From a virus: a stretch of 64,000 nucleotides of DNA. The first letter of the stretch is position 1; every line of letters begins with the position of its first letter. The position numbers were made by a program, and so were the translations under genes. The stretch spans positions 11,286 through 75,285 of the IMG/VR virus record IMGVR_UViG_3300010400_000003; one strand, 5' to 3'. Positions 1 through 64,000 of this stretch are shown in pieces. The notes beneath the pieces are model-generated. The model searched no databases, was not told where the DNA came from, and saw only the letters and a program-made list of their open reading frames with translations.

Positions 1-18
1 CTGAGCTTGGTGTTCGGA
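1..18 (+). other. attC site, right end only (L' CTGAG, 6-nt spacer, R' GTTCGGA)
   Basis: Same L'-6nt-GTT layout as the complete sites; its core is complementary to R'' at 253-262. Confidence 0.75.
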
Positions 19-323
19 GACTCGGCTTGCATGATGACTCGCGCAAAAGTGCGCAGGTTGAATTCCACCGTTTCTTGTGTCGTCCATAGGCGGTCATCAG
101 CAGCCCATTCTTTCACAGCCTTTTCCTGTGCAGCGTTTAGGACTATCGGGACTGCCCTGATTGAGCCGTCTGGCTGGAGTGCGATTGTAAGCGGTTCGCC
201 GCTCGCCAGCATTCGTTCCAGTTCTTCGATGGTAGGTCTTGGTCTTTCGACCGTCTCCGAACCAGTCGCTGGAGCGAATCCGGCGGGGCGCTTTGATTGT
301 TCAGAGTCAGTTTCCATATTCAT
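1..323 (-). CDS. Cassette-borne hypothetical protein, 3' end beyond window
   Basis: Translated by hand: MNMETDSEQSKRPAGFAPATGS...AESPNTKL, open to the edge; ATGA overlap with 320-688. Confidence 0.75.
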   Translation of the reverse strand, partial: MNMETDSEQSKRPAGFAPATGSETVERPRPTIEELERMLASGEPLTIALQPDGSIRAVPIVLNAAQEKAVKEWAADDRLWTTQETVEFNLRTFARVIMQAESPNTKL

Positions 324-368
324 GTCTTTCGTTGTTCGCCGCCGGATTCGCTCAGCTTATCGTTAGGT
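256..368 (+). other. attC site 1 (113 bp)
   Basis: R'' TCCGAAC, 6 nt, CTGGAGCGAATCCGGCGG ... CCGCCGGATTCGCTCAG, 6 nt, R' GTTAGGT; one unpaired G in the left arm. Confidence 0.88.
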
Positions 369-688
369 GCTTTCGGTGCAGGTATCTCTTTCCACCCTTC
401 TCCTGTCGGGCAGTCTTTCGTCTCGCAATACCAGCTTCCGCCACGACCGTTGCATTGAGGGCACGCAACCCAGTCGCCTGGGTCGTAGAAATTCGGGTCG
501 TCCTCGTAAGCGTCATAATATCCGTCCTCGCACCCCAGACCGCCACATTCGCCCCACTCCATTTCGCAGTGGCACACAGCGCATATCATCGCACCATCAG
601 ACCCACGATACATCGCACCTAACAAATCCTTGGAAGCAACAGCCGGGGGCTGGGACTGTTGCTGTGGCGTTTCAATTTTTGAGTCCAT
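320..688 (-). CDS. Cassette-borne Cys-rich zinc-finger protein (DnaJ-like CxxCxGxG)
   Basis: CAVC, CGGLGC, CPQCNGRGG, CETKDC. Confidence 0.8.
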   Translation of the reverse strand: MDSKIETPQQQSQPPAVASKDLLGAMYRGSDGAMICAVCHCEMEWGECGGLGCEDGYYDAYEDDPNFYDPGDWVACPQCNGRGGSWYCETKDCPTGEGWKEIPAPKAPNDKLSESGGEQRKT

Positions 689-724
689 AATTATTCGCGG
701 CTGTGCTTCAAGTCAGTGTTAGGT
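617..724 (+). other. attC site 2 (108 bp)
   Basis: R'' ACCTAAC, 6 nt, TTGGAAGCAACAGCCG ... CGGCTGTGCTTCAA, 6 nt, R' GTTAGGT; two unpaired bases (G, A) in the left arm. Confidence 0.88.
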
Positions 725-1029
725 GAGCCTAGCGGCAGCACTCCTTCTTCGGGGTATTCATCGAAGTAGGCGATGTGCTTGTGAGGCGGCACTTGGCATT
801 TCTGTTCTTCATCCCAGACGCCTTTCTTCGGCCATGCGGCGATTTTGATTTCCGTCTCGCGCTCCTCGACCTTTTCACTGGCGGTCGGCTCTTGGACTAC
901 CAGCCCGCAGAATTGTGCGAGGTCGCGGATTTCATCTATTGTGAGCGTCAGATGCGGCTCACCTAACCCGTCAGTGGAGCGCGACGTGGCGGGGCTTTCC
1001 GGCATAGTTGCTTGATCGGCGTCACTCAT
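691..1029 (-). CDS. Cassette-borne hypothetical protein
   Basis: 112 aa, tightly packed with neighbours; AGAAGGA upstream. Confidence 0.75.
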   Translation of the reverse strand: MSDADQATMPESPATSRSTDGLGEPHLTLTIDEIRDLAQFCGLVVQEPTASEKVEERETEIKIAAWPKKGVWDEEQKCQVPPHKHIAYFDEYPEEGVLPLGSPNTDLKHSRE

Positions 1030-1089
1030 TTTATTTCCTTCTGTGAGCCGCAGGCGTCAGCCGCCACGCCGCTCACTTTGGCGTTCGGC
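961..1089 (+). other. attC site 3 (129 bp)
   Basis: R'' ACCTAAC, 6 nt, GTGGAGCGCGACGTGGCGG ... CCGCCACGCCGCTCAC, 6 nt, R' GTTCGGC; unpaired bases in the left arm. Confidence 0.87.
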
Positions 1090-1355
1090 TCTGTCGTCTC
1101 CCAGAAGTCCATGTGGAAGATCAAGCCCGTTGACGTGCCTTTGGTGATTATTTTGACCATTGCTTTGTCGCGCTTTCCAAATCCGATGACGATGCCTTCG
1201 GAAGCTCCGGGATTTGCCCTGCCCCTGCCCTTGTTCATGCCTTGACTGATTGCCAAAGGCGTCACCTTTACACGCATCCCCCATTGGAATTTGTCACGAG
1301 CCGAACCATCCGATGCAGGCGACGTGGCGGGCGCTGGTAGTTTTAAGTCATTCAT
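1026..1355 (-). CDS. Cassette-borne hypothetical protein, possible SH3/KOW-like barrel
   Basis: FQWGMRVKV...EGIVIG pattern; ATGA overlap with next gene. Confidence 0.7.
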   Translation of the reverse strand: MNDLKLPAPATSPASDGSARDKFQWGMRVKVTPLAISQGMNKGRGRANPGASEGIVIGFGKRDKAMVKIITKGTSTGLIFHMDFWETTEPNAKVSGVAADACGSQKEIK

Positions 1356-1406
1356 AAATTCGGAGGCGCGGGTTAATCGGCCACGCGCCTGATCTGGTCG
1401 TTAAAA
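1300..1406 (+). other. attC site 4 (107 bp), terminal site of the array
   Basis: R'' GCCGAAC, 6 nt, ATGCAGGCGACGTGGC ... GCCACGCGCCTGAT, 6 nt, R' GTTAAAA; unpaired G and A in the left arm. Confidence 0.87.
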
Positions 1407-3073
1407 TTCAAATGCGATTCCGTCACCTTCACCAAACACGCCGCCGTGTCGTTCACCCCGACGGACACCATCCAGCCGTCGTCTTGCGCGACCGCGCCGT
1501 AGGGTATCACGACGTTTGGCTTCCAATGCGCAGCCCCGCTGCGCCACTCGTGGCCGCTCAGAATCGGATGGCTGGAAACGGCCAGCATCTCGAACGGCGG
1601 TTCGCTGTTCATCACGTACGCCCCCATGTAGTAACGCACGTCGCGCGGCTTGTCGCTGATTGGGATTTGACTATGGAAGAACCGCAGCCACTTCCCGCGA
1701 TACGGTATCGGAGGCGTGCCGCCGCGGATTTGTCCCCACGCCCAGGAAAGCGACGGCGTCCGCCATTCCTCATCTGGCTTGCCATCGCGGATCCTCACAA
1801 CGACATGCTCGGGCGAACAGGCGTAAATGAAATGCGTGCGGCCTTCCAGGTCGAAGAACACCCAATTCTTTTCGAGCGCACTGCCGTCGTTGTGGCCATA
1901 TTCAGGCCGGCAGAATTCCGCCAGTTCGGCGCCGCTGTCCGAGACTTTGATTTCTCCGTAGGCCATGACGCAGCGGAAACGATTGCCAGCCACGCCCGCC
2001 ACGACAAACGAGCCGAACAGGCGATCATCACGGGTCCACAGTCGCATGTCCTCGACGCTGGACGTGCTCAAATCGGACGGCATCCGCAGCGGCAAATGCC
2101 TGATGGCGGTCGCCGTTGCCGGGTCGAGTTGCACAATCGCCAGTTGCGTTTTCCACGAGCCGTGCGGGTGATGGCGGTAGGTGGACCACAGATTGCCGTT
2201 CCACTGAATGAGCGACGGGTTGTAGCCGTGCGCTTCCAGGCCCATGATGGGACGCTGCGACGGTCGCCGCACGCCGGACAATACCTGCCGGGCCATGTGC
2301 AAAATCTCCGGCTTGCGAGCGCTGTATTGCGAGTACCGGCAATGAAGCTCGAACCGCTTTTGCCAAGGCGTGCCGTTCCACGGCGTTGGCAGGTCGCGGC
2401 TCAACGCTATGACCGGCACTTTCGACGCCGCGCTCAAATGCAGCGGCAGGCTGTCGCCGGCAATCAGCAGTTCCGCGCGGTCCATCAATCGTATCAAGTC
2501 GTAAGGCTTTTCCGCTCTCACTTCAGATAAGTCGAGCGCGCGACACTTTGGCAACGCTTCCTGAACGGCCTGAATCAAATCGTCCTTTTCAGGGAAAGGC
2601 GATGCTACGCCGCTGAGAGCCACGAGGATTATTTGCAAATCCACGTTCAGATGCTTCTCCACTAGCGCAGCCTCGCGCAACACATCCCGCCGGTCAAACT
2701 CCAACGGCAACCGCCGCCAATCGTTTGGCCGTCCGAGGTTGGCCCAAATCTCGTGGACAAAGCTTTCCCCAACCGGCTTGCGCGTGCCGGCGGACTCGAC
2801 GGGATTCACCCAGCGAATCATTGAGCCGTTCGACTGCTCTTTGATCCATGACACCGCCCGATGCACTGTGTCGCCATCCTGGCCGCGCTTCCACGTCTCG
2901 GGGTAAACGATCGGGGTGACGTAGCTCACGCCGTCCAAGATGTCCTCGTAGTTCTGCGCGACGACGATGCTCGTCTTTTCGCCGGTCGCCCGAAAGCGGT
3001 CCAGCGCGAACGGCAGGACGATGCACAAATCCCCGTAACTGCCCAAGCAGACGATTTGCTCGCGGTTGCTCAT
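1373..3073 (-). CDS. GT9-like glycosyltransferase fused to a 5-bladed propeller glycosidase/phosphorylase-like domain
   Basis: N-terminal GSYGDL and LIAGDSLPLHLSAASKVPVIAL; C-terminal YNPSL, VEDMRL, EKNWVFF, RGGTP, SVGVND; start placed at ATG 3073 (ATGA overlap). Confidence 0.8.
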   Translation of the reverse strand: MSNREQIVCLGSYGDLCIVLPFALDRFRATGEKTSIVVAQNYEDILDGVSYVTPIVYPETWKRGQDGDTVHRAVSWIKEQSNGSMIRWVNPVESAGTRKPVGESFVHEIWANLGRPNDWRRLPLEFDRRDVLREAALVEKHLNVDLQIILVALSGVASPFPEKDDLIQAVQEALPKCRALDLSEVRAEKPYDLIRLMDRAELLIAGDSLPLHLSAASKVPVIALSRDLPTPWNGTPWQKRFELHCRYSQYSARKPEILHMARQVLSGVRRPSQRPIMGLEAHGYNPSLIQWNGNLWSTYRHHPHGSWKTQLAIVQLDPATATAIRHLPLRMPSDLSTSSVEDMRLWTRDDRLFGSFVVAGVAGNRFRCVMAYGEIKVSDSGAELAEFCRPEYGHNDGSALEKNWVFFDLEGRTHFIYACSPEHVVVRIRDGKPDEEWRTPSLSWAWGQIRGGTPPIPYRGKWLRFFHSQIPISDKPRDVRYYMGAYVMNSEPPFEMLAVSSHPILSGHEWRSGAAHWKPNVVIPYGAVAQDDGWMVSVGVNDTAACLVKVTESHLNFNDQIRRVAD

Positions 3074-3273
3074 TCCTTCACAAGTTTGATGCTCTCCGCG
3101 CTCACCCACGCTGCGCCATCGCCGTGGCTCGGGTGGATGCGAACCTCGTCCCGTCCGTAGCGTTGTTGCACGGCCTCGACAATCACAGGAATCGCAAGCG
3201 CGCCGTCGGATCGCAATTTGGGCCGCCAAATCGCTTTCCTCCAAACGTATTTTTCCAGTTCAGGCTTGGTCAT
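3070..3273 (-). CDS. Hypothetical protein
   Basis: ATGA-coupled on both sides. Confidence 0.7.
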   Translation of the reverse strand: MTKPELEKYVWRKAIWRPKLRSDGALAIPVIVEAVQQRYGRDEVRIHPSHGDGAAWVSAESIKLVKE

Positions 3274-9880: not shown

Positions 9881-10381
9881 TCAGGTAGCGATTCCAGCGC
9901 AGTCGTTTCTGGAAAAGCATCTGAGCCGGTTATTCTCCGGTTCGATCGGCCTGACGTTTGAGAAGTGAGCAGCCTTCAGAACTTGTGATTCAATGGTGAG
10001 ATCGAAGGAACCAAGCGGGGCGATGTGGTCGCACTCCCAAAGGTCGCCGTAGTTCTCCCACGACCAGCCCGGCTTGAACTGAGAGGCGATATGCCTGCGA
10101 AAGTCTGCTGGTGAGCAGGCGAGCACCTTTGAGTGACGTTTCGACTTTGGGTGGTAAACGATGGCGTTTCGAACTGCGGCGTAGATCCGGCGCATGTTGA
10201 TGTGGTGCCTCCGAGGCTTGCTAACCGCGGCGAGGTATTCGGCCTTGGTTTTCATCCCGAGCCGCAAGCGACGCGATGCGTTGATTTCCTCTCGGTGAGC
10301 GTCTTTGTGGGCGAGTATATTCGCCCGGTTAGCGGCGTAGTAGGCTTTGTTCCTGGCGCTTCGTTCCTCGATTGTTTCCAT
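9881..10381 (-). CDS. HNH/endonuclease VII-like free-standing endonuclease
   Basis: WSWENYG..WECDHIAP..FDL...HFSNVRP...N; paralogous to 36147-37118. Confidence 0.8.
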   Translation of the reverse strand: METIEERSARNKAYYAANRANILAHKDAHREEINASRRLRLGMKTKAEYLAAVSKPRRHHINMRRIYAAVRNAIVYHPKSKRHSKVLACSPADFRRHIASQFKPGWSWENYGDLWECDHIAPLGSFDLTIESQVLKAAHFSNVRPIEPENNRLRCFSRNDCAGIAT

Positions 10382-10436
10382 AGGCGTGATTCCAGCAGAA
10401 CCACGTGGAACTGTCAACGGTTTGTTTCCAGCGAAA

Positions 10437-10697
10437 CTACGTTTGTCCGCGCACGCCGGCGTCCTGTCCATGGCCGTCGGGTTGGCGGCGTGGCTCGACC
10501 TGCGAGTGCCCTCGGGATGTCAGCCAAGCCGGCCAAGTGGCCGGATCTTCCGGGCGGTAGGTCGCGGTGTAATCAGGCGGCGGTAGCGGGCAACCGAGCG
10601 GGCAGGGTTCGTGGACGGTGATGGTCGGGGCGAATCGGTCGGGGCGGGCGATCATGCCGGTACTCGAGCAGATGGGGCAGGGGCGTCTGGCGCTCAT
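10437..10697 (-). CDS. Hypothetical zinc-finger protein
   Basis: CPICSSTG...CPLGC. Confidence 0.55.
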   Translation of the reverse strand: MSARRPCPICSSTGMIARPDRFAPTITVHEPCPLGCPLPPPDYTATYRPEDPATWPAWLTSRGHSQVEPRRQPDGHGQDAGVRGQT

Positions 10698-10700
10698 GGG

Positions 10701-10961
10701 CTACTTGCTGAATTCCTTGTGCGGGTATGGGCAGCACTTTTGCGCCGGGCATTCGTCGCAATACCAGTCGCCTTTCTTCGTGAGGATGCAGCCCCAAGGC
10801 TTTGGCTTGCCCTTGCCATCACCCCACGACCAACGCACCGGAATCTTATCGGCGGCGAGAGTGCAGAGCTTTTGTAGTTCCTCTTGCTTTGGGGCGCGCT
10901 TGGCGGTCGCCACCGCCTCTTGCAGCGCGTCGTATTCAGATTCGGTCAGCAGGTATTGCAT
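10701..10961 (-). CDS. Cys-rich hypothetical protein
   Basis: Start MQYLLT; C-terminal YCDECP..CCPY. Confidence 0.7.
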   Translation of the reverse strand: MQYLLTESEYDALQEAVATAKRAPKQEELQKLCTLAADKIPVRWSWGDGKGKPKPWGCILTKKGDWYCDECPAQKCCPYPHKEFSK

Positions 10962-11253
10962 TGGTTTCTGGTTTCGATTTCTCGCGTTCAGCCATCTCCG
11001 CCAACCTCGCCTCCGCCTCGGCCGAGAACTCCGCCTGTTGCTGCGGCGTCTTGGCCAAGGTGGTGCCGCCGATGAAATCAGGCTGGACCTGTCCGGCGCT
11101 GTTGCTGGTCCAGAATTGAACTTGGACGCAGAAATTGGCGCCAAGCAGGATGGCCACACGCTCGCGCCAGTTGAGTTGGCGGAACCACTCGAAGGTGTAG
11201 CGGTGCTTGAGTTTGGGAGGGAGGGGAGTGCCGATCGGGAATTTTGGTTTCAT
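10936..11253 (-). CDS. Hypothetical protein
   Basis: 105-aa ORF in operon. Confidence 0.65.
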   Translation of the reverse strand: MKPKFPIGTPLPPKLKHRYTFEWFRQLNWRERVAILLGANFCVQVQFWTSNSAGQVQPDFIGGTTLAKTPQQQAEFSAEAEARLAEMAEREKSKPETNAIPADRI

Positions 11254-49876: not shown

Positions 49877-52800
49877 ATGGCGCAAGCGCCCACTGATGTC
49901 AGCGACCTCGGAGTAATCGAGAAACGAAGTCCACTCCCGGACTTTTCAGACCTCGGCGTGATCGAACCTGTGGCGCAAGGCGCACCGGATTTTTCCGACT
50001 TGGGGGAACTTGAGCCGCGCCGCATCGAACCTCCCGCCGATCTGAGCGGAGTCAAAGACGCCCGCGCTCCGATCTTCTTAGGCCGAGACTATCAGGTGGT
50101 CGAACCCTATCGCGACCCGAACGCGGCGCTGCGGGCAGATACCACCGGGCCGGTCGGTCGCACCCTGCGATTCATCGGCCAGAAGCTCGAACCGATCACG
50201 CCGAAGCGAACAGCCTTTCCGTTCCTGAACGCGGCGGACCTGGCGGCGGGAGATTTCCGTCACATGCTGGGCGACTACGACCCGGAGACAGGCGAAGTCA
50301 GCAACTCGCAGTTTCTACCAGACGCGCCCGCGCCGACGTGGGCCAAGGTTGCGACCGGGGCAGAACGCGGAGTTGCCCAAGTTGCCGGCGCGGCCATGCC
50401 GTGGGTGATTGCCGGCCCGCTAGTTGGCGGCGCCACTCGCCTCCCACTCGCCGCCCGCACGGTGTCAGCGGTGTTTGCCGCCGACATGATCCGGCAGTTG
50501 CCAGATCAGGTACAGGTGTTCCTGGATGCCGTGGACAAGGGTGACACGCAAACGGCGGTTCAGGCGGGCGTAGGCGGTTCAGCGGGCGCGCTTCTCGCCT
50601 CGCTCGCGCTTTACCATGCGGTAGCTCCGACCAAGGTTCCACGATTGGACGCGCTCGGGAATCCAATCATTGACCCCGCCACAGGAGAACCAGCATTTGA
50701 CACCCGAGGCATCGCGCAGGAGTCACCCGCCATCCGCGCTTTGCTGACGCGGAAGATTACCACCGAATACACGCCGGAACAGATCAAGGAGGTTTATTCG
50801 CGTGTGAACCTCGGTCAGGCGAATCCCGCCGAGCAGGAACTCGTGCGGTTCATCAACAGCGCGTTGGAGCGTCCGGGCGAGGCCGTGCGCAAAGGCGCGA
50901 CAGTCACGGAAGCGTTTCCGCGAATCGAAAATGAATTCTGGCGGAAATTTCTCGGTCTGAAAGAAGGCGAGCGCACGGTCACAATCGCGGGTGAGAAACC
51001 CGCACAACCCACAGGAGGCCCAAGTGCCGTTAATCCAGTCAGCGAGTCCGGCGGCGTTCAAAGCGAATCTGCACGAACTCTCCAAATCGGGAAAGAGAAC
51101 GAACAAACAAAACCTCGCGATCGCGTTCCGAGTCCAGCGGGGCAACCGCCCGAAAGGCCGAACGCTCCGGCTCAAGCCGCGCAAGCGCCTGTCAGCCTGA
51201 CGCGCGATGCGGCAATCAAGGAACTCAGACTTGAGGGCGTAACACAAGCCGATGCCGAAGCGTTGGTTGACGGAAAGAAAACCGTCAAGGATGTCGTCGA
51301 AGGCAATTTCAAAATCACGCCATCTCGCGTTGTCGGAGAGGAGCAGGGCCACGATGAAGCCTTTGTTGAGGGATACAACCAAGCGATCGAACGGCTTTCA
51401 AACATAGTTCGGAAATCCAAACCAGCCCTTCCCTCAAGTGCGACCAAGGAGACGCCTCCGGCGGCGGAACCAATAAAAACGACTCCGCCGCCGCCCGTCA
51501 AACCACCCGGGGACGCGATCGAATCCCGCTCGCCAGAGGATCAGGCCCGCAGTGCAGAAGCCGGGAAGGACATGGTTCGTCTTGGGCAGCTTGAAGGTTT
51601 GGAGTCAGCTGGGATGTTGACGACCTCGAAGCGATCCGAATTGGAAGCTTTGAGAGCAAAGATTAAGGCCGCACCCAAGCCAACTACTAATCCAGAACTA
51701 AAACCGGAAGAATTAGTTTCTGAGCCTGCCGCTCCCGAAGTGAAGCCCGCCGAACCGCCTGTAGTGGCCGGCGGTACTCCGCCGGTCGCTCCAACTCCAA
51801 CGGAAGAATCAATTCTCGCTCCACGTTCAGAGCAAATTCAGTCCGCACCAGCCGAACACGTAAGAGCTTTCGAGGAACTTCGGAACATCACGATTGACTT
51901 CAACAACAAAAAGCTATCTCGCAAGAAAAGAGATGCGCTGATACCGAGAGCGCAAGAACTTCGCAGCGAGCTTTCACGCGCCGGATACACTCCAGACCAA
52001 ATCAAAGATGTCGAAATGGGAAAGCGCGGTGTTCCACTCCCAGAATCCGCTCCCGCCGCTCCCGCGCAAGCTCCGGCGAAACCCGAACCACTCGACACGC
52101 TCGGCAATCCTGAATCATTCTACGCCACGAAGTCGCTCATGGGCGCGCAGATGCGGCGCAGTCCGAAGCTCGCGGCGGCGATGAAGTTCTACGGCGTCAA
52201 GACCGTGAAGGATTTGAACCGTCTGGCGACGCGGCGGTTTGCGGAGATGCGCGAGCGTGAGGCGGTTAAAGAAACCAGCGAATCGCACACGCAGGTTAAA
52301 CCGACTCCCCTTAACCAGAATGTGCAAACCGGCGAGAATCTTAACCAGCCATTCGTTGCGGAGATTCTCCAAGCCGTAGCCGCAGACCCGTATGCGCTGA
52401 CGAAGAACATCACGCGCAATCAGCAGGACGAAGGCTATACGGATCGCTTGCGCTTCAAGTCTGGTTCTCAGGAATACATCGCCTTGCTCCGACCCGAGAA
52501 GCGCAACACAGGTTCGCGGGCGATGTTCAATCATCCAGAGCAACTGGACGTGTTTCATTCGTCGGACACAGCGATGACTCGAAGGCTGGCGAGAATTGAT
52601 TTCTCAGAGATTAGCAAGCCGGCGATTGCAGAGGTCTTGCCGGCCCCGCCAGTTGTAAAGGAATCGCTTACAACTGCTGCTCCCGTAGCCGAACCAGAGC
52701 CGAAGCCAGCCGTTCCGAAACCGCAAGCGCCGCCTCCGCCGCCGAAGAAACCAACGGAAGCGCCGCCGGTCGCGCCGGTGGAGGAACGCAGTGAGACGCT

Positions 52801-55800
52801 CGCGGACAGGATGCGCGGTCAACGCTCCGCGACAATCGGAACGGTGACGAGCGATGCTGGAGTGTTCAGCATGTCGGTGCGGCCTGATAATTCTGCCGGA
52901 GGATTGTCAGTCGTGCTTTCCAACAAGGAAGGCTCGCAATCCATTCGGATGAATTACCGCTACGACATGACGCTGGCGGACCTGCGGAAATCCTTTCAGG
53001 AATACCTCAACATTGACAACCCAGGAAAGTTCACCGTTGAGATTTCCCAGCCGAAGCCTGCGCCGACAGAGGCGGCACCGCTAACGCTCAAACAGGAGTG
53101 GAAGCGCCAACTCAAAGAGAAGAAGTCCATCCGCTACAAGACGGCCACCGATGAAAAAGCCATTGAGCGATTGAAGGCCAAGATCGCCAACGATCCGTCG
53201 AAATGGTCGGCGGGCGACGGCGTTGGCTACCGCGTCAACTCCGGGCGCGGCACGCAGGTCAACCGCGGCTTCCGCATCGTGGACGCGGATCGTGATGCTG
53301 AGACGGTCACGGTGCGGCAAGTGGCCGACACGGGACTGACTTCGAGTGGCGGCAATTACGACACCATCCGCGACCAAGTGATTGACATGGTGGACTTGGT
53401 TCGGGACAACAAATACACGCTCCAGCCAAGTGCTGCGCCGGCCATTGCGCCAGCAGTGGAGGAAAAGTCTCGCGAGCAACTGATACGCGAAGAAATCGAA
53501 CGCGCCATTCCCGCGCTGGAGGATCAACTCGCCGACATCAAGCGACGACGCAAAGAGGTTCGCGCTCAGTTCAAAGGCCAGAAGCCAATCTCGACGTTTA
53601 ACCGCACGACGCCGCGCATTGCTCGCGGCCAGGAGTTCCAGCGTGCGCTCGACAATCTGGACATGGAGGAAAGCGGCGCGGCGAGAGGGCTTGAGCAATA
53701 CCGGAAGCGGCTTGCTGAAATCCAGACCGCAGAGAGTGCGGCAAAAGGATATTCGATAGGCGAGCCAATCATCGTCGAACGCAGTTATGGCGTTGATGCA
53801 ACTGTTCACAAATGGCCCGGCAATAAAGTGACCATCACAGCACGGCCAGATTTGGACGTTTCCGTTTACAAAGCAAAGTCAGGGTGGATCGTAAACGCCA
53901 ACGGAATATCGGTTGGAAAATCCCGCAAAGGCGTTGGCTCAATCGGATTCGATACTCCGCAAGAGGCCGTTGAGAACTATCTGGCAACTCTCAATAAAAC
54001 GCCCGAAGTAAAAGCCGCAACTTCCCCAAATGCGGATATGGCTGGCGGGGAATACGCCGTTGATTTTGAGTCGGCATCTGGCGACCGAATCAAATTGGTG
54101 GTTTCCTCTGAGAAATATGCCGACCTCTCGGATGAAGCGAAGGAGATGGTTGATCGGGCCTACAAAACGACGTTGGAATTCAACGAAAAAGATTTCATCA
54201 AGTGGGAAAAGATCAAGCAGGGAAAATCTAAAGTCACGGTCACTGAGCGCATTGAAGGCAGCGGTAAATCCAGGCAGAGCGTGACGCTGGACAGCCCCGA
54301 AGTGGAGTTTGGAAGTTGGGCGAAGCGCACGGACCTTCACGACGCAAAGTTCAATCCAAAAGGTGAGGCGTTGCGCGACAAGCTGTTCTCGGAACGCGAG
54401 GCGGAAGCAAAATCAAAGGCTGACAAAGAAGCCGCCGACCGCGCGGAATATGAGCGAAAGGCGAAAGAGTTCAGAGACTACTCTGAAACTGTTTCCCAAA
54501 CGCCCCTTCCCGCAGGAAAGAAAACAACTTTGGAAATTACCAGCAAGGAAGGCGTTAAGTCTCAACTCGAAGGCACTCGTTACGGAGACTGGTTCATTCA
54601 CAAGGTTGGACCAGTCGGTCACGGTCGCTACGCTGACCCAGTTGTTTACAAGGTGAGCCATGTTGCTTCGGGTTTGGGAGTTTCAGATAAGGGACTGCCA
54701 ACGCTTGAGAATGCAAAAAATTACGTTCGTGCTCTGATTCACGCGAACGTCAGGGCGGACTTTAAGCAAGCGTCCGATCTTTCCAAAGAAGAACACAAGG
54801 CGATTTCCGAAGTCGCGCGGGCTTGGGTTGGCGGCGGTGATGTGCCGTCGTATTTCAAACCCGCCCCGCCAACCACTCTGCCGCTCGAAGGCTGGGACAC
54901 CACCGGCCCCGGGGAAGATCAGGCCGACACGCGCTACGAGGACCTGCTGCGCTCGGGCACGGACGCCGCTACGATGCTGGACGCGATGGAGGCCAACGCG
55001 GAGAACGGGTTCGAGTACGCTCTGATTCAAAAGCTCAAGTCGCTCGGGTTGAAAACGACCGTCCGCATGGGCGCGGTCAACGAATCGCCAAGCCCGACCA
55101 CGACCGGCTACTACGGTTCCGACAAGGATGAAATTCTCGTGTTCGAGCGCGCGACGAACCGGCAGAAAGTCCTGCTCCATGAATTTGTCCACGCCGCGAC
55201 CGCGCAAGCCGTGGCCGACAGCCCGGCGTTCCGACTCGAACTCGAAGCCATGCTCCAAGAGGCCCGTGCGGCGATTGGCACATCCAGCTACGGCACGCGC
55301 AATGTGTATGAGTTTCTGGCCGAGGCGTTCAGCAATCCGGGCTTCCAAGAGCGGCTGGACAGCATCGGCGGCAAGCAAAGCCTCTGGCAACGCTTCCTCG
55401 CTTGGCTGCGGCGCATCTTCGGGATCAAGGACAAGGACGCCAGCCTGCTCGAACGGGTCATTCGCCGCAGCGCCGCCGAGTTCCGCGCGCCACGCAACAC
55501 GCTGGTCGCCAGCAATGCCGTCACGACGCTGCAACCCGGATTGGTTCGCATCGGCGGAGCAAAGCAATTCCCAGCCGTCACCGCCTACCACGGCACGCCG
55601 CATGAGGTGGACCAGTTCACGACCGCCAAGATCGGCACGGGCGAAGGCGCGCAAGTCTATGGATGGGGGCTTTACTTTGCGGAGAATCCAGAGGTGGGCC
55701 GCTATTACAAAAAAGGTTACGGCAACATGGAAGTGGACGGGAAATATATCGCTGTGCCTTTGTATGCTGATTTGGAGTCGGGCAAGGTCAAACCAACACC

Positions 55801-58800
55801 AGAAATCTACGCAGCTAAAGCGGTGCATAGTTCTGGCGCGTCAGCGATTCACGACTTGGAAAGTTCACACGACACATTTCCAGACCGAGTGGCAGCAGCG
55901 GGCGCGATAAAGCTCATCAATGAGGGCCGAGTAAAACCAGCAGAGGGCAACGAATACACCGTCACGCTGAACGCCGAGCCAGACGAATTGCTCGACTGGG
56001 ACAAGCCTGTTCAGCAACAGAGTGAGAAAATACAAAACTTTGTCCTAGACACCCTCGCGCGCAGGGATGTTAATTTTTGGAACCAGAATCCGACTGGAGC
56101 GGAACTCTACCGCCGCCTGCAAGGTGAGTTTCGATATGGCGACGATCCAAGAGTAGGGCCTCGCGAAGCCTCCGAGGAATTGCGAAGTCTTGGTATCAAG
56201 GGCATCCGGTACGCCGACCAGGGCAGCCGCAATATCAATGTTATTAAGGGAAGTGGTGGAAAATACCCGCAGGATTATTGGCTCGCTCAGGATACTCGGG
56301 ACTATGCCACGCCGGCCAAGGTGTTCTTTTCCGAATCAGAAGCGGAAGCTTGGGCCGCCAGCCAGCGCACCTACAACTACGTCATCTTCGACGACAAGGA
56401 CATCACGATCACCCATCGCAATGGCCAGCAGGTCACGCCGAGCGAAATGGCCGGGGCGCAGGGCGGCCAAACGATCTTCCCGATGGAGGAAGCTGTCCCT
56501 GAAGGCGGGCGTCCGGTCGTCAATGGCGAGGAACTGGCCGGCGACGAGCATGTTCAGATCGCCGGCGTGGATTACACGATTCTCGGCAAGGAAAAGATCA
56601 CGCCCGCGCAACTGGCCGCCGCGGCGGAACGGACGCGCGAGTTGTTCCAGAAGGACCTCAAACTGCCGGGCGTGCCCGACCGCTCGTACGGCAAGAAGCA
56701 GGGCGCGACAGACACGAACGTTGTGTTCCGCATCGTGCCGGACGGCCAGAACCACGACGAGGCTGGCCAACGCCTGATCGAGCATTTCACCGAACAGGTG
56801 AAACAGCAGTTCCAGCCGGGCGGTGATCCAGCCTACGTCTCTCAACTCGCCAACGCGATCAAGAAGAACTTCGTGCTCGGCAACTGGAACGGTGTGCTGA
56901 GCGAGTCGGTGATGAACGATTTGGTGGAGCGCGCGGCAGCCGATGCGTCGTTCAAGGGCCAGTTGCTCCGCGCGCAGACCGGCATCCAAGAGGATGTCCA
57001 GACCGTCGCCCGCAATGCCCCGTTCTTCCTCCGGCGCATTTACTCCGAGCGATTCGGCGGCGAGAACGTCAACGCCGTACTCGAGAAGCTGCTGACGCAG
57101 TTCCGGGATTTGCTGACGGACCAAGAGATTGCGGACGCCATGAACGGCGCCCCGGCGCTGGCCAAGGCGTTGAACAAGGTCACGGGCAACCGTGCGGCGG
57201 AAATCCTGAGGCGCATCTTCGCGTCACCATTCGACAGCCAGAAGCAGGTGCGGCAAAAGCTGGTGACGATCCTTCAGGACGAACTCAAGGTGTCCAGGGC
57301 TGAGGCGAAAGCGATCGGCGATCTGTTCGATGACGCTTTCACGACGATGTTCAACCGCATCGCGCAAGCCTCGCTGGCGATGATCGAGAAGGCGATGACC
57401 GCCCGGGACCGTCAAGTGCTTGGGTTTGGCCGTCGGCGCGGCATCTGGCAGCGCATCAAGGATGCGGTCAACAAAGGCAACTTCAACGCCGCGTACGTCC
57501 TGCAACGCCAAGCGGACAGCCAGCGGTGGAACATCCCGACCGAGGCGGACCTCGCCAAGGTGCGGGCGATGGCGGAGGAAATTGATCGGCTGCTCCAGAT
57601 ACCCGAGCGGCGCGTCCGTGAGATTGGCGACAACCCGGCGGAACTTGAACGCGAGCGCGTGCGCCAGCGCGACGCCACGAGCGAGATGCGCGTCGAACTC
57701 AAGCGCAAGATCGAGTCCTACTGGTCGAGGTGGACACTGCCGCTGACACCGCGCAACCCGAAAGGCCGGGCCAACATCGTTTCGGCGATTTACGAGCACA
57801 CGGCGGCGGTCCTGCTGCTAAAGCCCGGCTTCATCACCCGGCAGACGATTGATGTCTCTAACAACGCGCTGTTGCACATCCCATTCCGGGCGCTCGGTCA
57901 TGCAATCGTGCTGCATGGAGGATTCAAAGCTAACGCGACGAACAAAGAGTTTTGGGATGACGCCAACTCATTGTTCAAGCAGGCGGCGAGGGTTCAGATT
58001 CAGGCTTTACCGGCAGCACTGCGCGAGTTCAAAGAGGCGCTGAAGGGCACGGCGGAGATCAAGAACGTGGATCGCCTGCTCTCTGGCATTGCCTTGTTCG
58101 AGCGCGTCCAGATGAAGGCGGACGAATTGCAGGCGGCTGGCAATACCGGGCAGGCGTTCCTGCTCCGCGCCTACGGGCTGGTGCGTTTCTCCTACCGCTT
58201 CGCCTCGGCGCTGGACAACTTGCAGGGCGTCCCGCAAGAGTGGCAGGAGATACGCTCCCAAGCCTATCGCTTCTTCCGAGAGAACGGAATGTCCATCGCT
58301 GAGGCTAAGACGGCGGCGGACAGGATAGTCCCGGACCTCCGCAGTGAATTTCTGAAGGCCCTTCCAGAATCGAAGCGAATCTTGGAAGCGGGGTTGGAGC
58401 CATACGGCAGGACGCCAACCATAGCGCAGATCGAGGCTGGCGCGTTCCATATCGTCAAAGGCATGGCGTATCTGCGAATGCAAGAGGCTGGTATGCCGGC
58501 GGACGACTTCGAGAGCCGCAACCGCCTCATGCGCTCGACGAACGCGTGGAACGAGTCAATGGCGGGCGTGGCGTCGCTTGGAGGAGTCGTCTCCACAGGG
58601 ATGAAGAAGCTTGGCGAGGTTGGTCAAGCTGTTCCAGTTCCGCTCGGGCTTATGTTCGGCGCGTTTGGCAGGTTTGGTAATGCCATAGGCACAGGCATTG
58701 ACCGGGCGCTGACCATGACGCCGATGGGCATGGTCCCCGCCGCGTTCGGCGTGCGCGATGAATACATTGACGCGGAGACAGGACTCTCCAGCAAAGGCTC

Positions 58801-60124
58801 ACCGTGGTTCCGCACGGCTGAGGACCGGGCTACCCGCAGCGTGGAGTCGGCGGTGTTCAGCACGCTTGGCGCGTTGTTCATCGCGCTCGTGTTGGCCGGC
58901 TACATCGTCGTCCGCAACCGCTGGCCGAAGGATCCAAAGAAGCGCGACGAGTGGGAGCGAAACGGGTGGAAGCCGGGCACGGTCGCCATCCAAGTCGGCG
59001 ACGGCAAGGAGATCCCGGTTTCGATGACCGTCGGGCCATTTGCTCCGCTCCGTCCGTATTTCGCCGCAGCCGGGTCGTTGCGCGATTCGCTGGACCGGAA
59101 GGCAGAGCAGCAGGCGGCGCTCGACGCCAAGGCGGCAAAGTTCGGGCTAACCCCCGGCAAAGCCAAGGGCCTCGGTCTGGCCGACGCGATGGCGCTGGCG
59201 GTGGAGACTGGCTGGGCGTCCATCATGGGCGGACGGACGGCGAGCGGGTTGATCGGCTCGATCACCGACTACGGGACGCCCAATGCGGCCAAGAGCGTCT
59301 CGGCCGCCATCAGCCCTTACGTGCCTGGCTTGCCCGCCATTCAGGAAATCAGCCGCATGGCCGGGGTGATGCTCGACCAGAACAGCGCGACGGTCGCGGA
59401 TTTCCTTGTCCCACTGCCGTCCAGCCCGCACGCCAAGGTCAACGTGTTGGGCGACCCTGCGGGCACGCCGCACGATTTGCAGCGGATTGTTCAGGTTTTG
59501 ACCGGCGGGACGTTCCCCGGCATCACCGAGAACGATGCCGGGAAGGCAAATTCCGCCTACGCCGCCTTGTTCGGCAGCGGCTACCGCCCGCCGGCAGTCA
59601 GTCCAAATCAGGGCTATCCGATCGGCGGCGAGTTCCGCCCGATGACGCCGACCGAACTCGAAGCCTACACCGTTGCCCGAGGGCAGGCGCTCAAAGAGGA
59701 GCTTTCGGGCGTCAACGTCGAAGGCTTGCCTGAAAATGAGGCACGGAAGGTCGTTCAGGCGGCCTACCAGCGTGCCAACCGGACGGCCTTGGCCTCCGTG
59801 GGCGTCAGTGTGCCCGCCAGCGCGGCGCGCGCGGCGACGGGTGTTGGCGCGTCCGGAGCGCAAACGCTCGCTGGCGGCCCTGTGGCGACTCGGGGATTGG
59901 CCGTTCCGCGTGGAACGTCCCGATTAGGCCCGGCGCGTGGCAACGCGACCTTGCGTTTTGCACGAACTCCGTCCAAAGGATTGCGTTTGCCGTCCCGTAG
60001 GGGTTCGCTCCGACTTGGGTTCAGGAAAGGCCCGACGGTGCGGCGGCGGGGCACGTTGCGGCTACCGTCGAGATCGTCGGGTGGGTCATTGAGGCTGCGG
60101 AGGCCAAGTCTAAGGCTTGTGTGA
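49877..60124 (+). CDS. Giant polyvalent/internal virion protein (3415 aa) with zincin and ART-like domains
   Basis: HEFVH...EFLAE at about 55178-55325; AYHGTP..IGTGEGAQVYGWGLYF...NYVIFDD at about 55580-56400; helical C-terminal region. Confidence 0.85.
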   Translation: MAQAPTDVSDLGVIEKRSPLPDFSDLGVIEPVAQGAPDFSDLGELEPRRIEPPADLSGVKDARAPIFLGRDYQVVEPYRDPNAALRADTTGPVGRTLRFIGQKLEPITPKRTAFPFLNAADLAAGDFRHMLGDYDPETGEVSNSQFLPDAPAPTWAKVATGAERGVAQVAGAAMPWVIAGPLVGGATRLPLAARTVSAVFAADMIRQLPDQVQVFLDAVDKGDTQTAVQAGVGGSAGALLASLALYHAVAPTKVPRLDALGNPIIDPATGEPAFDTRGIAQESPAIRALLTRKITTEYTPEQIKEVYSRVNLGQANPAEQELVRFINSALERPGEAVRKGATVTEAFPRIENEFWRKFLGLKEGERTVTIAGEKPAQPTGGPSAVNPVSESGGVQSESARTLQIGKENEQTKPRDRVPSPAGQPPERPNAPAQAAQAPVSLTRDAAIKELRLEGVTQADAEALVDGKKTVKDVVEGNFKITPSRVVGEEQGHDEAFVEGYNQAIERLSNIVRKSKPALPSSATKETPPAAEPIKTTPPPPVKPPGDAIESRSPEDQARSAEAGKDMVRLGQLEGLESAGMLTTSKRSELEALRAKIKAAPKPTTNPELKPEELVSEPAAPEVKPAEPPVVAGGTPPVAPTPTEESILAPRSEQIQSAPAEHVRAFEELRNITIDFNNKKLSRKKRDALIPRAQELRSELSRAGYTPDQIKDVEMGKRGVPLPESAPAAPAQAPAKPEPLDTLGNPESFYATKSLMGAQMRRSPKLAAAMKFYGVKTVKDLNRLATRRFAEMREREAVKETSESHTQVKPTPLNQNVQTGENLNQPFVAEILQAVAADPYALTKNITRNQQDEGYTDRLRFKSGSQEYIALLRPEKRNTGSRAMFNHPEQLDVFHSSDTAMTRRLARIDFSEISKPAIAEVLPAPPVVKESLTTAAPVAEPEPKPAVPKPQAPPPPPKKPTEAPPVAPVEERSETLADRMRGQRSATIGTVTSDAGVFSMSVRPDNSAGGLSVVLSNKEGSQSIRMNYRYDMTLADLRKSFQEYLNIDNPGKFTVEISQPKPAPTEAAPLTLKQEWKRQLKEKKSIRYKTATDEKAIERLKAKIANDPSKWSAGDGVGYRVNSGRGTQVNRGFRIVDADRDAETVTVRQVADTGLTSSGGNYDTIRDQVIDMVDLVRDNKYTLQPSAAPAIAPAVEEKSREQLIREEIERAIPALEDQLADIKRRRKEVRAQFKGQKPISTFNRTTPRIARGQEFQRALDNLDMEESGAARGLEQYRKRLAEIQTAESAAKGYSIGEPIIVERSYGVDATVHKWPGNKVTITARPDLDVSVYKAKSGWIVNANGISVGKSRKGVGSIGFDTPQEAVENYLATLNKTPEVKAATSPNADMAGGEYAVDFESASGDRIKLVVSSEKYADLSDEAKEMVDRAYKTTLEFNEKDFIKWEKIKQGKSKVTVTERIEGSGKSRQSVTLDSPEVEFGSWAKRTDLHDAKFNPKGEALRDKLFSEREAEAKSKADKEAADRAEYERKAKEFRDYSETVSQTPLPAGKKTTLEITSKEGVKSQLEGTRYGDWFIHKVGPVGHGRYADPVVYKVSHVASGLGVSDKGLPTLENAKNYVRALIHANVRADFKQASDLSKEEHKAISEVARAWVGGGDVPSYFKPAPPTTLPLEGWDTTGPGEDQADTRYEDLLRSGTDAATMLDAMEANAENGFEYALIQKLKSLGLKTTVRMGAVNESPSPTTTGYYGSDKDEILVFERATNRQKVLLHEFVHAATAQAVADSPAFRLELEAMLQEARAAIGTSSYGTRNVYEFLAEAFSNPGFQERLDSIGGKQSLWQRFLAWLRRIFGIKDKDASLLERVIRRSAAEFRAPRNTLVASNAVTTLQPGLVRIGGAKQFPAVTAYHGTPHEVDQFTTAKIGTGEGAQVYGWGLYFAENPEVGRYYKKGYGNMEVDGKYIAVPLYADLESGKVKPTPEIYAAKAVHSSGASAIHDLESSHDTFPDRVAAAGAIKLINEGRVKPAEGNEYTVTLNAEPDELLDWDKPVQQQSEKIQNFVLDTLARRDVNFWNQNPTGAELYRRLQGEFRYGDDPRVGPREASEELRSLGIKGIRYADQGSRNINVIKGSGGKYPQDYWLAQDTRDYATPAKVFFSESEAEAWAASQRTYNYVIFDDKDITITHRNGQQVTPSEMAGAQGGQTIFPMEEAVPEGGRPVVNGEELAGDEHVQIAGVDYTILGKEKITPAQLAAAAERTRELFQKDLKLPGVPDRSYGKKQGATDTNVVFRIVPDGQNHDEAGQRLIEHFTEQVKQQFQPGGDPAYVSQLANAIKKNFVLGNWNGVLSESVMNDLVERAAADASFKGQLLRAQTGIQEDVQTVARNAPFFLRRIYSERFGGENVNAVLEKLLTQFRDLLTDQEIADAMNGAPALAKALNKVTGNRAAEILRRIFASPFDSQKQVRQKLVTILQDELKVSRAEAKAIGDLFDDAFTTMFNRIAQASLAMIEKAMTARDRQVLGFGRRRGIWQRIKDAVNKGNFNAAYVLQRQADSQRWNIPTEADLAKVRAMAEEIDRLLQIPERRVREIGDNPAELERERVRQRDATSEMRVELKRKIESYWSRWTLPLTPRNPKGRANIVSAIYEHTAAVLLLKPGFITRQTIDVSNNALLHIPFRALGHAIVLHGGFKANATNKEFWDDANSLFKQAARVQIQALPAALREFKEALKGTAEIKNVDRLLSGIALFERVQMKADELQAAGNTGQAFLLRAYGLVRFSYRFASALDNLQGVPQEWQEIRSQAYRFFRENGMSIAEAKTAADRIVPDLRSEFLKALPESKRILEAGLEPYGRTPTIAQIEAGAFHIVKGMAYLRMQEAGMPADDFESRNRLMRSTNAWNESMAGVASLGGVVSTGMKKLGEVGQAVPVPLGLMFGAFGRFGNAIGTGIDRALTMTPMGMVPAAFGVRDEYIDAETGLSSKGSPWFRTAEDRATRSVESAVFSTLGALFIALVLAGYIVVRNRWPKDPKKRDEWERNGWKPGTVAIQVGDGKEIPVSMTVGPFAPLRPYFAAAGSLRDSLDRKAEQQAALDAKAAKFGLTPGKAKGLGLADAMALAVETGWASIMGGRTASGLIGSITDYGTPNAAKSVSAAISPYVPGLPAIQEISRMAGVMLDQNSATVADFLVPLPSSPHAKVNVLGDPAGTPHDLQRIVQVLTGGTFPGITENDAGKANSAYAALFGSGYRPPAVSPNQGYPIGGEFRPMTPTELEAYTVARGQALKEELSGVNVEGLPENEARKVVQAAYQRANRTALASVGVSVPASAARAATGVGASGAQTLAGGPVATRGLAVPRGTSRLGPARGNATLRFARTPSKGLRLPSRRGSLRLGFRKGPTVRRRGTLRLPSRSSGGSLRLRRPSLRLV
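51024..51200 (+). CDS. Small basic phage protein nested in the +1 frame of the giant gene
   Basis: AGGAGG 5 nt before GTG; MPLIQSASPAAFKANLHELSKSGKRTNKQNLAIAF resembles the MPLxK..S..NI.E....QA.AIA small phage protein pattern. Confidence 0.65.
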   Translation: MPLIQSASPAAFKANLHELSKSGKRTNKQNLAIAFRVQRGNRPKGRTLRLKPRKRLSA

Positions 60125-63807: not shown

Positions 63808-64000
63808 TCGGGCTATGCCTGTGTCGAGGAAAGCGGCTTCTCCAAGACCTCCCGCCCCTTCGCCGTCAGCCGGAAGTATGGATCTGGCACGAACGACTTG
63901 CGCCCTGCGTATTCCATCAATCCTTGATAAACGAGTTCCTGCATGAGCGGACTGTCGCCGCAGTAAAGCCCGCCAGCGGCACGCTTGAGCGTGTGGTCCA

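What the first reader, a model, noticed from the sequence alone, without database searches (positions are those of the whole stretch)
12..1402. Frame-locked crossover: attC sites are protein-coding and hold the stop/start junctions
Seen: at all five junctions the GTT of R' is read on the minus strand as an in-frame Asn codon (SP-N-TKL, AP-N-DKLSES, SP-N-TDLKHS, EP-N-AKVSG, NF-N-DQIRRV). Each ORF starts in the loop of its own attC, crosses L'' and R'', and ends in the loop of the neighbouring attC. Stops and starts are coupled inside the loops (ATGA at 320-323 and 1026-1029; 2-nt gap at 689-690; 17-nt gap at 1356-1372). All four cassette lengths (350, 356, 365, 317) are 2 mod 3. Inference: any excision or reordering gives an in-frame gene with a swapped 9-20 aa C-terminal tail and preserved coupling, and an excised circle encodes a complete gene. 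This would be a plug-and-play operon with almost no non-coding cost.
Basis: partly seen in the sequence, partly recalled or inferred. Interest (0 to 1): 0.88.

Follow-up and report, generated by a model that had tools for sequence, protein, structure and literature searches.

The report
Phage integron with translated attC sites
A complete soil phage genome carries a working-looking integron whose gene cassettes are encoded on the "wrong" strand, so each recombination hairpin lies inside protein-coding sequence and the crossover point is read as an asparagine codon, which lets cassettes be swapped while changing only a short C-terminal tail.

Summary

- **It is an integron.** An integron integrase lies just left of the window (TIGR02249 above cutoff, catalytic motifs aligned to VchIntIA). 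Next come attI and five cassettes with genuine attC sites.
- **The genes are on the bottom strand.** All cassette ORFs lie on the attC bottom strand, co-directional with intI. They start in the loop of their own attC and end in the loop of the neighbouring one.
- **Coding is supported.** Codon usage favours these frames. Two cassette proteins have conserved families of 38 and 12 homologues.
In both families similarity stops at the Asn: 91% and 70% identity before it, 12% and 11% after it. The same tail types recur on unrelated proteins. Two pairs of loci lose DNA identity exactly after AAC.
- **The frame rule recurs.** About 35 of 40 read-through crossings in related loci use the Asn frame. 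Roughly 13-16 others stop inside R'. The frame at R'' looks random.

Caveats:
- A codon-usage null gives 0.48-0.66, not 1/3, so the window alone is weak (P about 0.03-0.12).
- "2 mod 3" is a by-product and fails for the sixth cassette (310 bp).
- No expression or recombination data exist.

Phage integrons are known, but I found no description of this architecture. The scan's first-stage readers had already noted this same stretch.

The parts
1..18 (+). 3' end of attC0, including R' core GTTCGGA at 12-18. The rest of attC0, cassette 0, attI and intI lie left of the window: genome 11214-11303, 10987-11296, about 10952-10990 and 10001-10951(-).
3..323 (-). Cassette-1 ORF. The full ORF is genome 11252-11608, 118 aa. 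It starts in the attC1 loop, reads R' at 12-14 as Asn, and its tail lies in attC0.
256..368 (+). attC1: R'' 253-262, L'' 272-286, loop holding stop 320-322 and start 323-321, L' 339-353, R' GTTAGGT 362-368
320..688 (-). Cassette-2 ORF, 122 aa, Cys-rich (CxxCxGxG-like). 12 homologues besides the window's own protein.
617..724 (+). attC2: R'' ACCTAAC 617-623, two extrahelical bases on the '' arm, loop holding start 688 and stop 691-693, R' GTTAGGT 718-724
691..1029 (-). Cassette-3 ORF, 112 aa. 38 homologues besides the window's own protein. The conserved block runs from LGEP (R'') to GSPN (R').
961..1089 (+). attC3: R'' ACCTAAC 961-967, L'' 981-992, loop holding ATGA 1026-1029, L' 1061-1072, R' GTTCGGC 1083-1089
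1026..1355 (-). Cassette-4 ORF, 109 aa. One homologue (P0054). Tail AKVSG...
1300..1406 (+). attC4: R'' GCCGAAC 1300-1306; spacer 5, 3 bp, g, 6 bp, a; loop holding start 1355 and stop 1373-1375; R' GTTAAAA 1400-1406. This is the distal end of the array.
1373..3244 (-). Resident 623-aa GT9/GH130-like gene. Its last 8 codons (N|DQIRRVAD*) come from attC4. It has no R'' partner, so it is not a cassette.

Best explanation
This is a functional-looking integron inside a complete phage genome of about 75.2 kb with a 123-bp terminal repeat. The host is probably Verrucomicrobiota, to judge from the closest IntI relatives.

Site polarity is canonical. intI is divergent from the attC top strand, and attI lies next to the intI start. 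The cassette genes, however, lie on the attC bottom strand. The order resident glycosyltransferase, then cassettes, then intI, then methyltransferase is therefore one co-directional, almost gap-free stretch of coding sequence.

Read in the direction of the genes, each cassette consists of:
- the C of the Asn codon;
- a short tail-coding segment (spacer, L' arm and part of the loop);
- a stop codon overlapping or abutting its own start codon in the loop;
- an N-terminal leader encoded by the L''/R'' arm;
- the gene body, ending ...AA.

The integrase cuts AA|C, and nearly all read-through cassettes place AAC in frame. Any cassette can then sit behind any other. Only the 1-25 aa tail changes, the stop always falls in the loop, and the stop-start coupling travels with the downstream cassette. 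attI supplies N-ID-stop for the newest cassette.

Shown: the anatomy, the strand polarity, coding on the minus strand, tail swapping at the Asn, DNA identity breaks at AAC, and recurrence in related viral loci.

Inferred: that the frame convention is selected for modularity, that transcription comes from the upstream phage operon, and that IntI is active.
For: **Integrase**
- TIGR02249 scores 275.5 bits against a cutoff of 265, matching model positions 2-313 of 315.
- It aligns to VchIntIA (2A3V) over residues 11-306, including the integron-specific insert and the HxxR / Y motifs.

**attC sites**
- The anatomy fits.
- The extrahelical bases lie on the arm opposite the AAC of the ORF-sense strand. 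That is the published definition of the bottom strand (PMC5027507).
- The same polarity holds across relatives, with bulges on the 3' arm in nearly all sites.

**Coding strand**
- The codon-usage log-likelihood is best in the minus-strand ORF frame for all five cassettes.
- Families of 38 and 12 homologues have invariant Cys, Gly and Trp columns.

**Tail swap at the Asn**
- Identity before and after the Asn is 91% vs 12% in one family and 70% vs 11% in the other. Tail types are shared between unrelated families.
- Against L027 the similarity ends at ...LGSPN and the tails differ.

**DNA breaks**
- L007 vs L026 and L100 vs L105 lose identity exactly after AAC. In L007 the break lies 43 nt upstream of the intI start.

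**Census of related loci**
- Classes at R': 38 Asn-frame, 13 TAA|C stops, few others. Frames at R'': 15, 26 and 23.
- Stop-start distance is -4 in 13 of 30 and within +/-8 in 24 of 30.
- In the two other frames a stop lies inside the attC in only 19 and 14 of 35 sites.

**Context**
- Phage identity: primase/helicase, large terminase, structural and tail-fibre hits; terminal repeat.
- Bacterial Verrucomicrobiota relatives have top-strand ORFs between their attCs.
- The viral bottom-coded loci form a well-supported IntI subclade.
Against: - There is no direct evidence of transcription, translation or recombination for this phage.
- The frame statistic weakens under a codon-usage null. AAC is in frame in 54% of cases in this phage's long ORFs. 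With the most conservative null of 0.655, P is only 1.6e-3.
- The census classifier picks the longest open frame and includes some false sites. attC sites within a pool share ancestry, so the crossings are not fully independent.
- The N-terminal leaders should co-inherit with the body under R'-only crossover. They are also not congruent with body subfamilies, which is unexplained.
- No clear Shine-Dalgarno sequences precede most starts.
- The first extrahelical base is C, not the canonical G.
Confidence: 0.75

Rival explanations
1. The architecture is real, with bottom-strand cassettes and translated attCs. The Asn frame, however, is a by-product of codon usage plus shared ancestry of the attC/R' ends. 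It is not a selected convention for modular exchange.
For: - AAC is in frame 0 in 54% of occurrences in this phage's own genes.
- The window alone gives only P about 0.03-0.12.
- attC leaders and tails fall into recurring sequence families, so the sites are related.
Against: - 35 of 40 read-through crossings are in the Asn frame across loci whose IntI is only 38-73% identical.
- The frame at R'', which has the same sequence constraints, is about uniform (15, 26 and 23).
- The other recurrent solution also closes the ORF cleanly, with a TAA or TGA inside R'.
- In the other frames about half of the attCs provide no stop.
Confidence: 0.18
2. The attC polarity is the opposite of what I assign. The ORF strand is then the top strand, the cassettes are canonical, and each gene's start and first 20-25 codons lie in the preceding cassette's attC.
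For: - The pattern inverted repeat, body, inverted repeat, stem-loop is strand-symmetric, so cassette boundaries alone do not fix polarity (my analysis).
- Leaders vary between close homologues.
Against: - Extrahelical bases lie opposite the AAC arm on the ORF-sense strand in nearly all sites (criterion from PMC5027507).
- intI/attI adjoin the AAC side of the array.
- DNA identity breaks fall exactly after the ORF-sense AAC, one of them next to intI.
- Tails, which would co-inherit with the body under this reading, are the least conserved part.
- Top-coded bacterial relatives share the same site polarity relative to intI.
Confidence: 0.04
3. The minus-strand ORFs are shadow ORFs. The array is non-coding or top-strand coding, or it is a decaying relic.
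For: - Long ORFs exist on both strands in this 57-60% GC DNA.
- The cassette proteins have no Pfam, NCBIfam or PHROG hit.
Against: - Codon usage favours the minus frames. The plus-strand ORFs score negative, apart from one 77-aa ORF at +0.04.
- Protein families of 38 and 12 homologues have conserved motifs and 50-93% identity.
- Stops and starts are tightly coupled.
- IntI is intact.
Confidence: 0.03

Closest known systems
Canonical integrons (class 1; Vibrio chromosomal integrons)
   Same: - IntI of the integron subfamily.
- attI next to the intI start.
- attC with R''/L''/L'/R', unpaired spacer, extrahelical bases and variable loop.
- Crossover at AA|C of the bottom strand.
- One small ORF per cassette.
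   Different: - Genes lie on the attC bottom strand rather than the top strand.
- No Pc-type promoter faces the array.
- Cassettes read toward intI.
- attC sites are fully translated instead of being mostly intergenic.
- The first extrahelical base is C, with 5-bp spacing.
Reverse / inverted integrons (Treponema denticola type; PMC6557892, PMC4889954)
   Same: intI and the cassette genes are transcribed in the same direction.
   Different: [quoted passage not shown] Here intI keeps the canonical orientation relative to attC and attI, and the cassette ORFs are flipped instead.
Integrons and CALINs reported in phage genomes (Qi et al. 2023, PMC9892861)
   Same: Integron integrase and attC arrays carried by phages.
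   Different: That paper describes typical cassette orientation. It does not mention coding attCs or a reading-frame rule at the crossover.
ORF-11 in attI1 and short ORFs inside attC (translational coupling; review PMC8876359)
   Same: Translation through att sites melts the hairpin and couples expression of the next cassette.
   Different: Those are tiny leader ORFs on the top strand. Here the translated sequence is the C-terminal tail and the N-terminal leader of the full cassette proteins.
Stem-loop-bounded mobile small-gene modules of T4-type phages (PeSL; recalled from memory, not checked here)
   Same: Small accessory phage genes bounded by hairpins and shuffled between genomes.
   Different: No integron integrase, no attC geometry and no crossover inside a codon.

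Membership tests
Integron | Tyrosine recombinase of the IntI subfamily with the integron-specific extra domain | tested here: met
   TIGR02249 scores 275.5 bits against a cutoff of 265, over the full length. It aligns to VchIntIA 2A3V through the insert region and the catalytic motifs.
Integron | attC sites: imperfect hairpin with R''/R' (RYYYAAC/GTTRRRY), 5-6 nt unpaired spacer, extrahelical bases on the '' arm, 57-141 bp | tested here: met
   Five sites of 90-129 bp show this geometry. Among 60 sites in relatives, the first extrahelical base lies 3 bp after the spacer in 39, and the second is T in 38 of 49. The first base is C rather than G.
Integron | attI adjacent to intI, with the crossover at GTT | tested here: inconclusive
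   The GTT at genome 10987 lies 36 nt from the intI ATG and starts cassette 0. In relative L007, DNA identity to L026 ends at an AAC 43 nt upstream of the intI start. No IntI-binding repeats were identified.
Integron | Pc promoter near attI/intI that drives the cassettes | tested here: not met
   No plus-strand sigma-70-like site was found. The only hit points toward intI. The genes are on the other strand. The scan is crude and may not suit this host.
Integron | Cassettes move by IntI-mediated recombination at the R' core | not testable with these tools
   Only indirect evidence exists: tails diverge after Asn, DNA breaks fall after AAC in two locus pairs, and each cassette's two ends are complementary.
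Reverse (inverted-integrase) integron | [quoted passage not shown] | tested here: not met
   The intI-sense strand is the attC bottom strand here and in relatives. Definition from PMC4889954.

The most novel reading that the evidence does not exclude
A distinct class of integrons, so far seen on viral contigs of probable Verrucomicrobiota phages, encodes all cassettes on the recombining (bottom) strand. It obeys a pool-wide reading-frame convention at the crossover: either AAC is read as Asn, or a stop codon sits inside R'. The attC hairpins would then do three jobs at once: recombination site, protein linker (tail and leader) and translational coupling device. Genes would be exchangeable inside an operon with essentially no non-coding DNA. 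The arrangement could occasionally create protein fusions.
Probability: 0.55. Interest if true: 0.85.

Novelty: new variant of a known kind. Interest (0 to 1): 0.8.

Why it matters
- Integron theory assumes promoterless top-strand genes expressed from Pc, with attC as a mostly non-coding, structure-only site. Here one DNA stretch has to satisfy hairpin geometry for the integrase and also encode two peptides on complementary arms, and the crossover sits inside a codon.
- If the frame convention is selected, it is a natural "assembly standard" for swapping genes within an operon.
- It shows a second way, besides flipping intI, to make integrase and cassettes co-directional.
- It gives a concrete model for how phages shuffle small accessory genes. 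An anti-defence role is one possibility: some relatives of cassette 3 are fused to a Lar-like restriction-alleviation domain.
- It adds constraints that bear on the open question of how cassettes and attC sites originate.
- Annotation tools that expect top-strand cassette genes may mis-annotate such arrays.

Tried and rejected
DNA contexts of the protein homologues P0002-P0054 could therefore not be fetched.
- **Viral-contig scan with the cassette-3 alignment** found no relative. The metagenome scan gave 15 loci.
- **Sequencing runs:** one DNA run, probably the source sample, and no RNA holder listed. Laying its contigs showed no joints at attC sites, only a second related contig with a different array. 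Contigs cannot show rare excision products.
- **Family searches:** the cassette proteins have no credible Pfam, NCBIfam or PHROG match. The only hit is a chance-level one (BPTI_nem, 17.2 bits against a cutoff of 27) to the long form of cassette 0.
- **Greedy longest-ORF strand calling** and unconstrained folding in AT-rich control loci were too noisy. I replaced them with codon-usage scoring, constrained stem alignment and ORF tiling.
- **The L096/L097/L098 cluster** carries a cassette-3 relative without the Asn. Its breakpoints fall at ordinary start/stop overlaps, not at attC sites, so I did not use it.
- **The GT gene as a large cassette** was rejected. No TTTTAAC partner exists within 8 kb.
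- **The opposite attC polarity** was considered and rejected (see rivals).
- **Not used:** structure, complex and atlas searches.
Full report
**What is in the sequence**

The window starts inside a cassette array. It is bases 11286-75285 of a single 75,285-bp contig. The first 123 nt of that contig recur at its end, so this is a complete genome with a terminal repeat. The genome encodes:
- a primase/helicase;
- a large terminase;
- a virion structural protein;
- a tail-fibre protein.

It is therefore a phage.

Immediately left of the window lies a 316-aa minus-strand ORF (genome 10001-10951). Three results identify it as an integron integrase.
- It scores 275.5 bits on TIGR02249, against a cutoff of 265, over the full model.
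- It has the Pfam SAM-like and catalytic domains.
- It aligns to VchIntIA (2A3V) across residues 11-306, including the integron-specific insert and the catalytic motifs.

Thirty-six nucleotides from its ATG is a GTT (genome 10987). This GTT begins the first of five cassettes. Their cores lie at genome 10987 and at window 12, 362, 718 and 1083. The array ends at the core at 1400.

**The attC sites are genuine**

- The first 9-12 nt of every cassette (GTTxGG...) recur as an exact reverse complement 215-253 nt further on. This is the classical signature of a cassette whose R'' pairs with the R' it had as a circle.
- Between that R'' and the next GTT lies an imperfect hairpin of 90-129 bp. One example is the perfect 15-nt pair of arms at 272-286/339-353.
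- Folding gives the textbook layout. It runs: 7-nt R box, 5-nt unpaired spacer, 3 bp, one extrahelical base, 5-6 bp, an extrahelical T, a variable loop, then the return arm without bulges.

**Which strand is the bottom strand**

The pattern repeat-body-repeat-hairpin is strand-symmetric, so polarity had to be settled separately.
- Nivina et al. 2016 (PMC5027507) define the bottom strand as the one whose extrahelical bases lie on the arm opposite the AAC triplet.
- On the ORF-sense (minus) strand the AAC is on the 5' arm and the bulges are on the 3' arm. This holds in this phage and in nearly all related sites.
- That strand is also the intI-sense strand, as in canonical integrons.

So site polarity relative to intI and attI is canonical, and the genes lie on the bottom strand. 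[quoted passage not shown]

**The minus-strand ORFs are the genes**

- A codon-usage log-likelihood trained on 14 long ORFs of this phage is best in the minus ORF frame for all five cassettes. The values are +0.05 to +0.16 per codon, against +0.21 for intI.
- Three of the four rival plus-strand ORFs score negative. The fourth, a 77-aa ORF at 1012-1245, reaches only +0.04.
- Cassette 3 has 38 homologues and cassette 2 has 12, with invariant Cys, Gly and Trp columns. Cassette 4 has one.
- Each ORF starts in the loop of its own attC and crosses L'' and R''. It then reads the body, reads the R' AAC as Asn, and stops in the neighbouring loop.
- Non-coding DNA between the glycosyltransferase gene and intI is almost nil. 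The gaps are 17, -4 (overlap), 2, -4 (overlap), 7 and 26 nt.

In both families the alignment is tight up to ...GSPN or ...APN and becomes unalignable right after.

| Family | Sequences with the motif | Identity, 12 aa before Asn | Identity, 8 aa after Asn |
|---|---|---|---|
| Cassette 3 (A1) | 31 | 91% | 12% |
| Cassette 2 (A2) | 9 | 70% | 11% |

- Tails are 1-76 aa long.
- The same tail types occur on unrelated bodies:
  - IRS on P0002 and P0047;
  - APGERP on P0013 and P0049;
  - AEVS on four cassette-3 relatives and on P0042;
  - AKVSG on P0019 and on this phage's cassette 4.
- At DNA level, two pairs of loci share a cassette at 92-95% identity and lose identity exactly after AAC.
  - L007 vs L026: in L007 the break is followed by attI/intI, and in L026 by an attC hairpin.
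  - L100 vs L105: the shared cassette-3-type body breaks at the same point.

**Recurrence in related loci**

- Eleven IMG/VR loci carry IntI that is 38-73% identical, with arrays upstream of intI.
- In several of them co-directional ORFs tile the array and read AAC as Asn. L005 shows this at 7 of 7 crossings and L006 at 6 of 7. In L011, 6 of 6 ORFs end with the TAA of an xTAAC core.
- A stricter census used hairpins with bottom-strand bulges plus inverted-repeat support. Its counts are tabulated below.
- After setting aside sites outside arrays, about 35 of 40 read-through crossings use the Asn frame.
- In Asn-class sites the stop-start distance is -4 in 13 of 30 and within +/-8 in 24 of 30.
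- In the two other frames a stop lies inside the attC in only 19 and 14 of 35 sites. That comparison is partly circular, because the sites were chosen for short Asn-frame tails.

| Position | Class | Sites |
|---|---|---|
| R' | AAC read as Asn | 38 |
| R' | xAA frame (13 of them TAA\|C stops) | 16 |
| R' | xxA frame | 9 |
| R'' | GTT frame 0 / 1 / 2 | 15 / 26 / 23 |

**How strong the frame statistic is**

The null is not 1/3. In this phage's long ORFs an AAC is in frame in 54% of occurrences. The figure is 48% in the C[GT]AAC context. It rises to at most 0.655 if the stop-creating frame is excluded.
- 35 of 40 then gives P between 2e-7 and 1.6e-3.
- The window's own 5 of 5 gives only 0.03-0.12.

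The "2 mod 3" lengths add nothing independent. They follow from in-frame AAC plus the stop-start offsets, and the sixth cassette (310 bp) is 1 mod 3.

**Phage arrays versus bacterial arrays**

- The closest bacterial IntI (51-72% identical) are in Verrucomicrobiota/Limisphaerales MAGs.
- Their attC polarity relative to intI is the same.
- Their credible ORFs show signal peptides and membrane helices. They lie on the top strand, between attCs.
- In an IntI tree the viral bottom-coded loci (this phage and L002-L006, plus the short MAG contig L013) form a well-supported subclade.
- Other bottom-coded loci sit outside that subclade, so at least two switches of coding strand are needed.
- The strand labels come from a noisy ORF-tiling measure.

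**Context and the distal end**

- The 623-aa GT9/GH130-like gene has no R'' partner within 8 kb, so it is resident and not a cassette.
- It reads ...NFN|DQIRRVAD*, while the attI side next to intI reads N|ID*.
- An empty site would thus give a GT ending ...NFNID* directly upstream of intI. attI lies in the last codons of a resident gene, which sets the frame convention (inference).
- A methyltransferase follows intI.
- The only sigma-70-like site lies in attI and points toward intI. Nothing resembles Pc.

**Most likely mechanism**

The array is transcribed as part of the leftward phage operon. Ribosomes finishing one gene translate through the L' arm and terminate in the loop, at or next to the following start.
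- The tail, the stop and the start all lie on the downstream cassette.
- All read-through cassettes enter that segment in the same frame.
- Excision, insertion at attI or reordering therefore changes only a short tail.

These steps are inferred. No RNA, protein or recombination data were available.

**Unexplained**

- The N-terminal leaders are encoded by the '' arm and should travel with the body. They are not congruent with body subfamilies.
- In cassette 4 versus P0054 the leader is 19 of 20 identical, while the pair is only 54% identical overall. Possible causes are strong conservation or conversion of attC families, or some exchange at R''.
- The first extrahelical base is C in 43 of 60 sites, with a 5-bp spacing, against G and 6 bp in studied systems.

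**Novelty**

Integrons and attC clusters in phages have been reported (Qi et al. 2023, PMC9892861), with typical orientation described. Translational coupling through attI/attC leader ORFs is known (PMC8876359). Five literature searches found no description of bottom-strand cassette arrays, fully translated attCs or a frame rule at the crossover. I rate this a new variant of a known kind.

Noticed in passing
window 1373-1402 and genome 10978-10989 (left of the window): The resident GT gene reads ...NFN|DQIRRVAD*. The attI remainder beside intI reads N|ID*. An empty integron would give a GT ending NFNID* 26 nt before the intI ATG, so attI appears to lie within the last codons of a resident gene.
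   Followed up: partly
window 63878-64000 (same sequence as genome 1-123): A 123-bp direct terminal repeat. The contig is a complete phage genome of about 75.2 kb.
   Followed up: yes
L011:80-3880 (IMG/VR locus, IntI 39% identical): All six cassette ORFs end with the TAA of an xTAAC R' core. The stop sits just before the crossover and no tail is borrowed. This is a second way of making bottom-strand cassettes independent of context.
   Followed up: partly
proteins P0008, P0012 and P0013; locus L093:1150-1660: Some cassette-3 relatives are fused in frame to an N-terminal zinc-ribbon domain. In P0008 it is annotated PF14354 (Lar restriction alleviation), which hints at an anti-defence role for this cassette pool.
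   Followed up: no
window 320-688 (-): The cassette-2 protein is Cys-rich, with a CxxCxGxG-like motif (CPQCNGRGG) that resembles DnaJ-type zinc fingers by eye. It has no Pfam hit.
   Followed up: no
genome 10118-12609 (record 4): The same soil sample holds an 11-kb contig of a related phage. It has a diverged intI and 1433 nt in place of 2285 nt between intI and an attC4-like site, so its cassette content differs.
   Followed up: no
genome 10958-10985 (-), left of the window: The only sigma-70-like promoter match in the region (TTGATT-16-TATATT) lies inside attI and points into intI. Its count is not above the shuffled expectation.
   Followed up: no
attC sites of this phage and relatives: The bottom-strand extrahelical bases are typically C, then 5 bp, then T. 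Studied integrons have G, then 6 bp, then T. This may be a clade-specific recognition variant.
   Followed up: partly
alignments A1, A2 and A3: Leader peptides encoded by the attC '' arm recur on different bodies and are not congruent with body subfamilies. In the cassette-4 pair the leader is far more conserved than the body.
   Followed up: partly
window 49877-60124 (+): A single 3415-aa ORF in the structural module. It was not examined.
   Followed up: no
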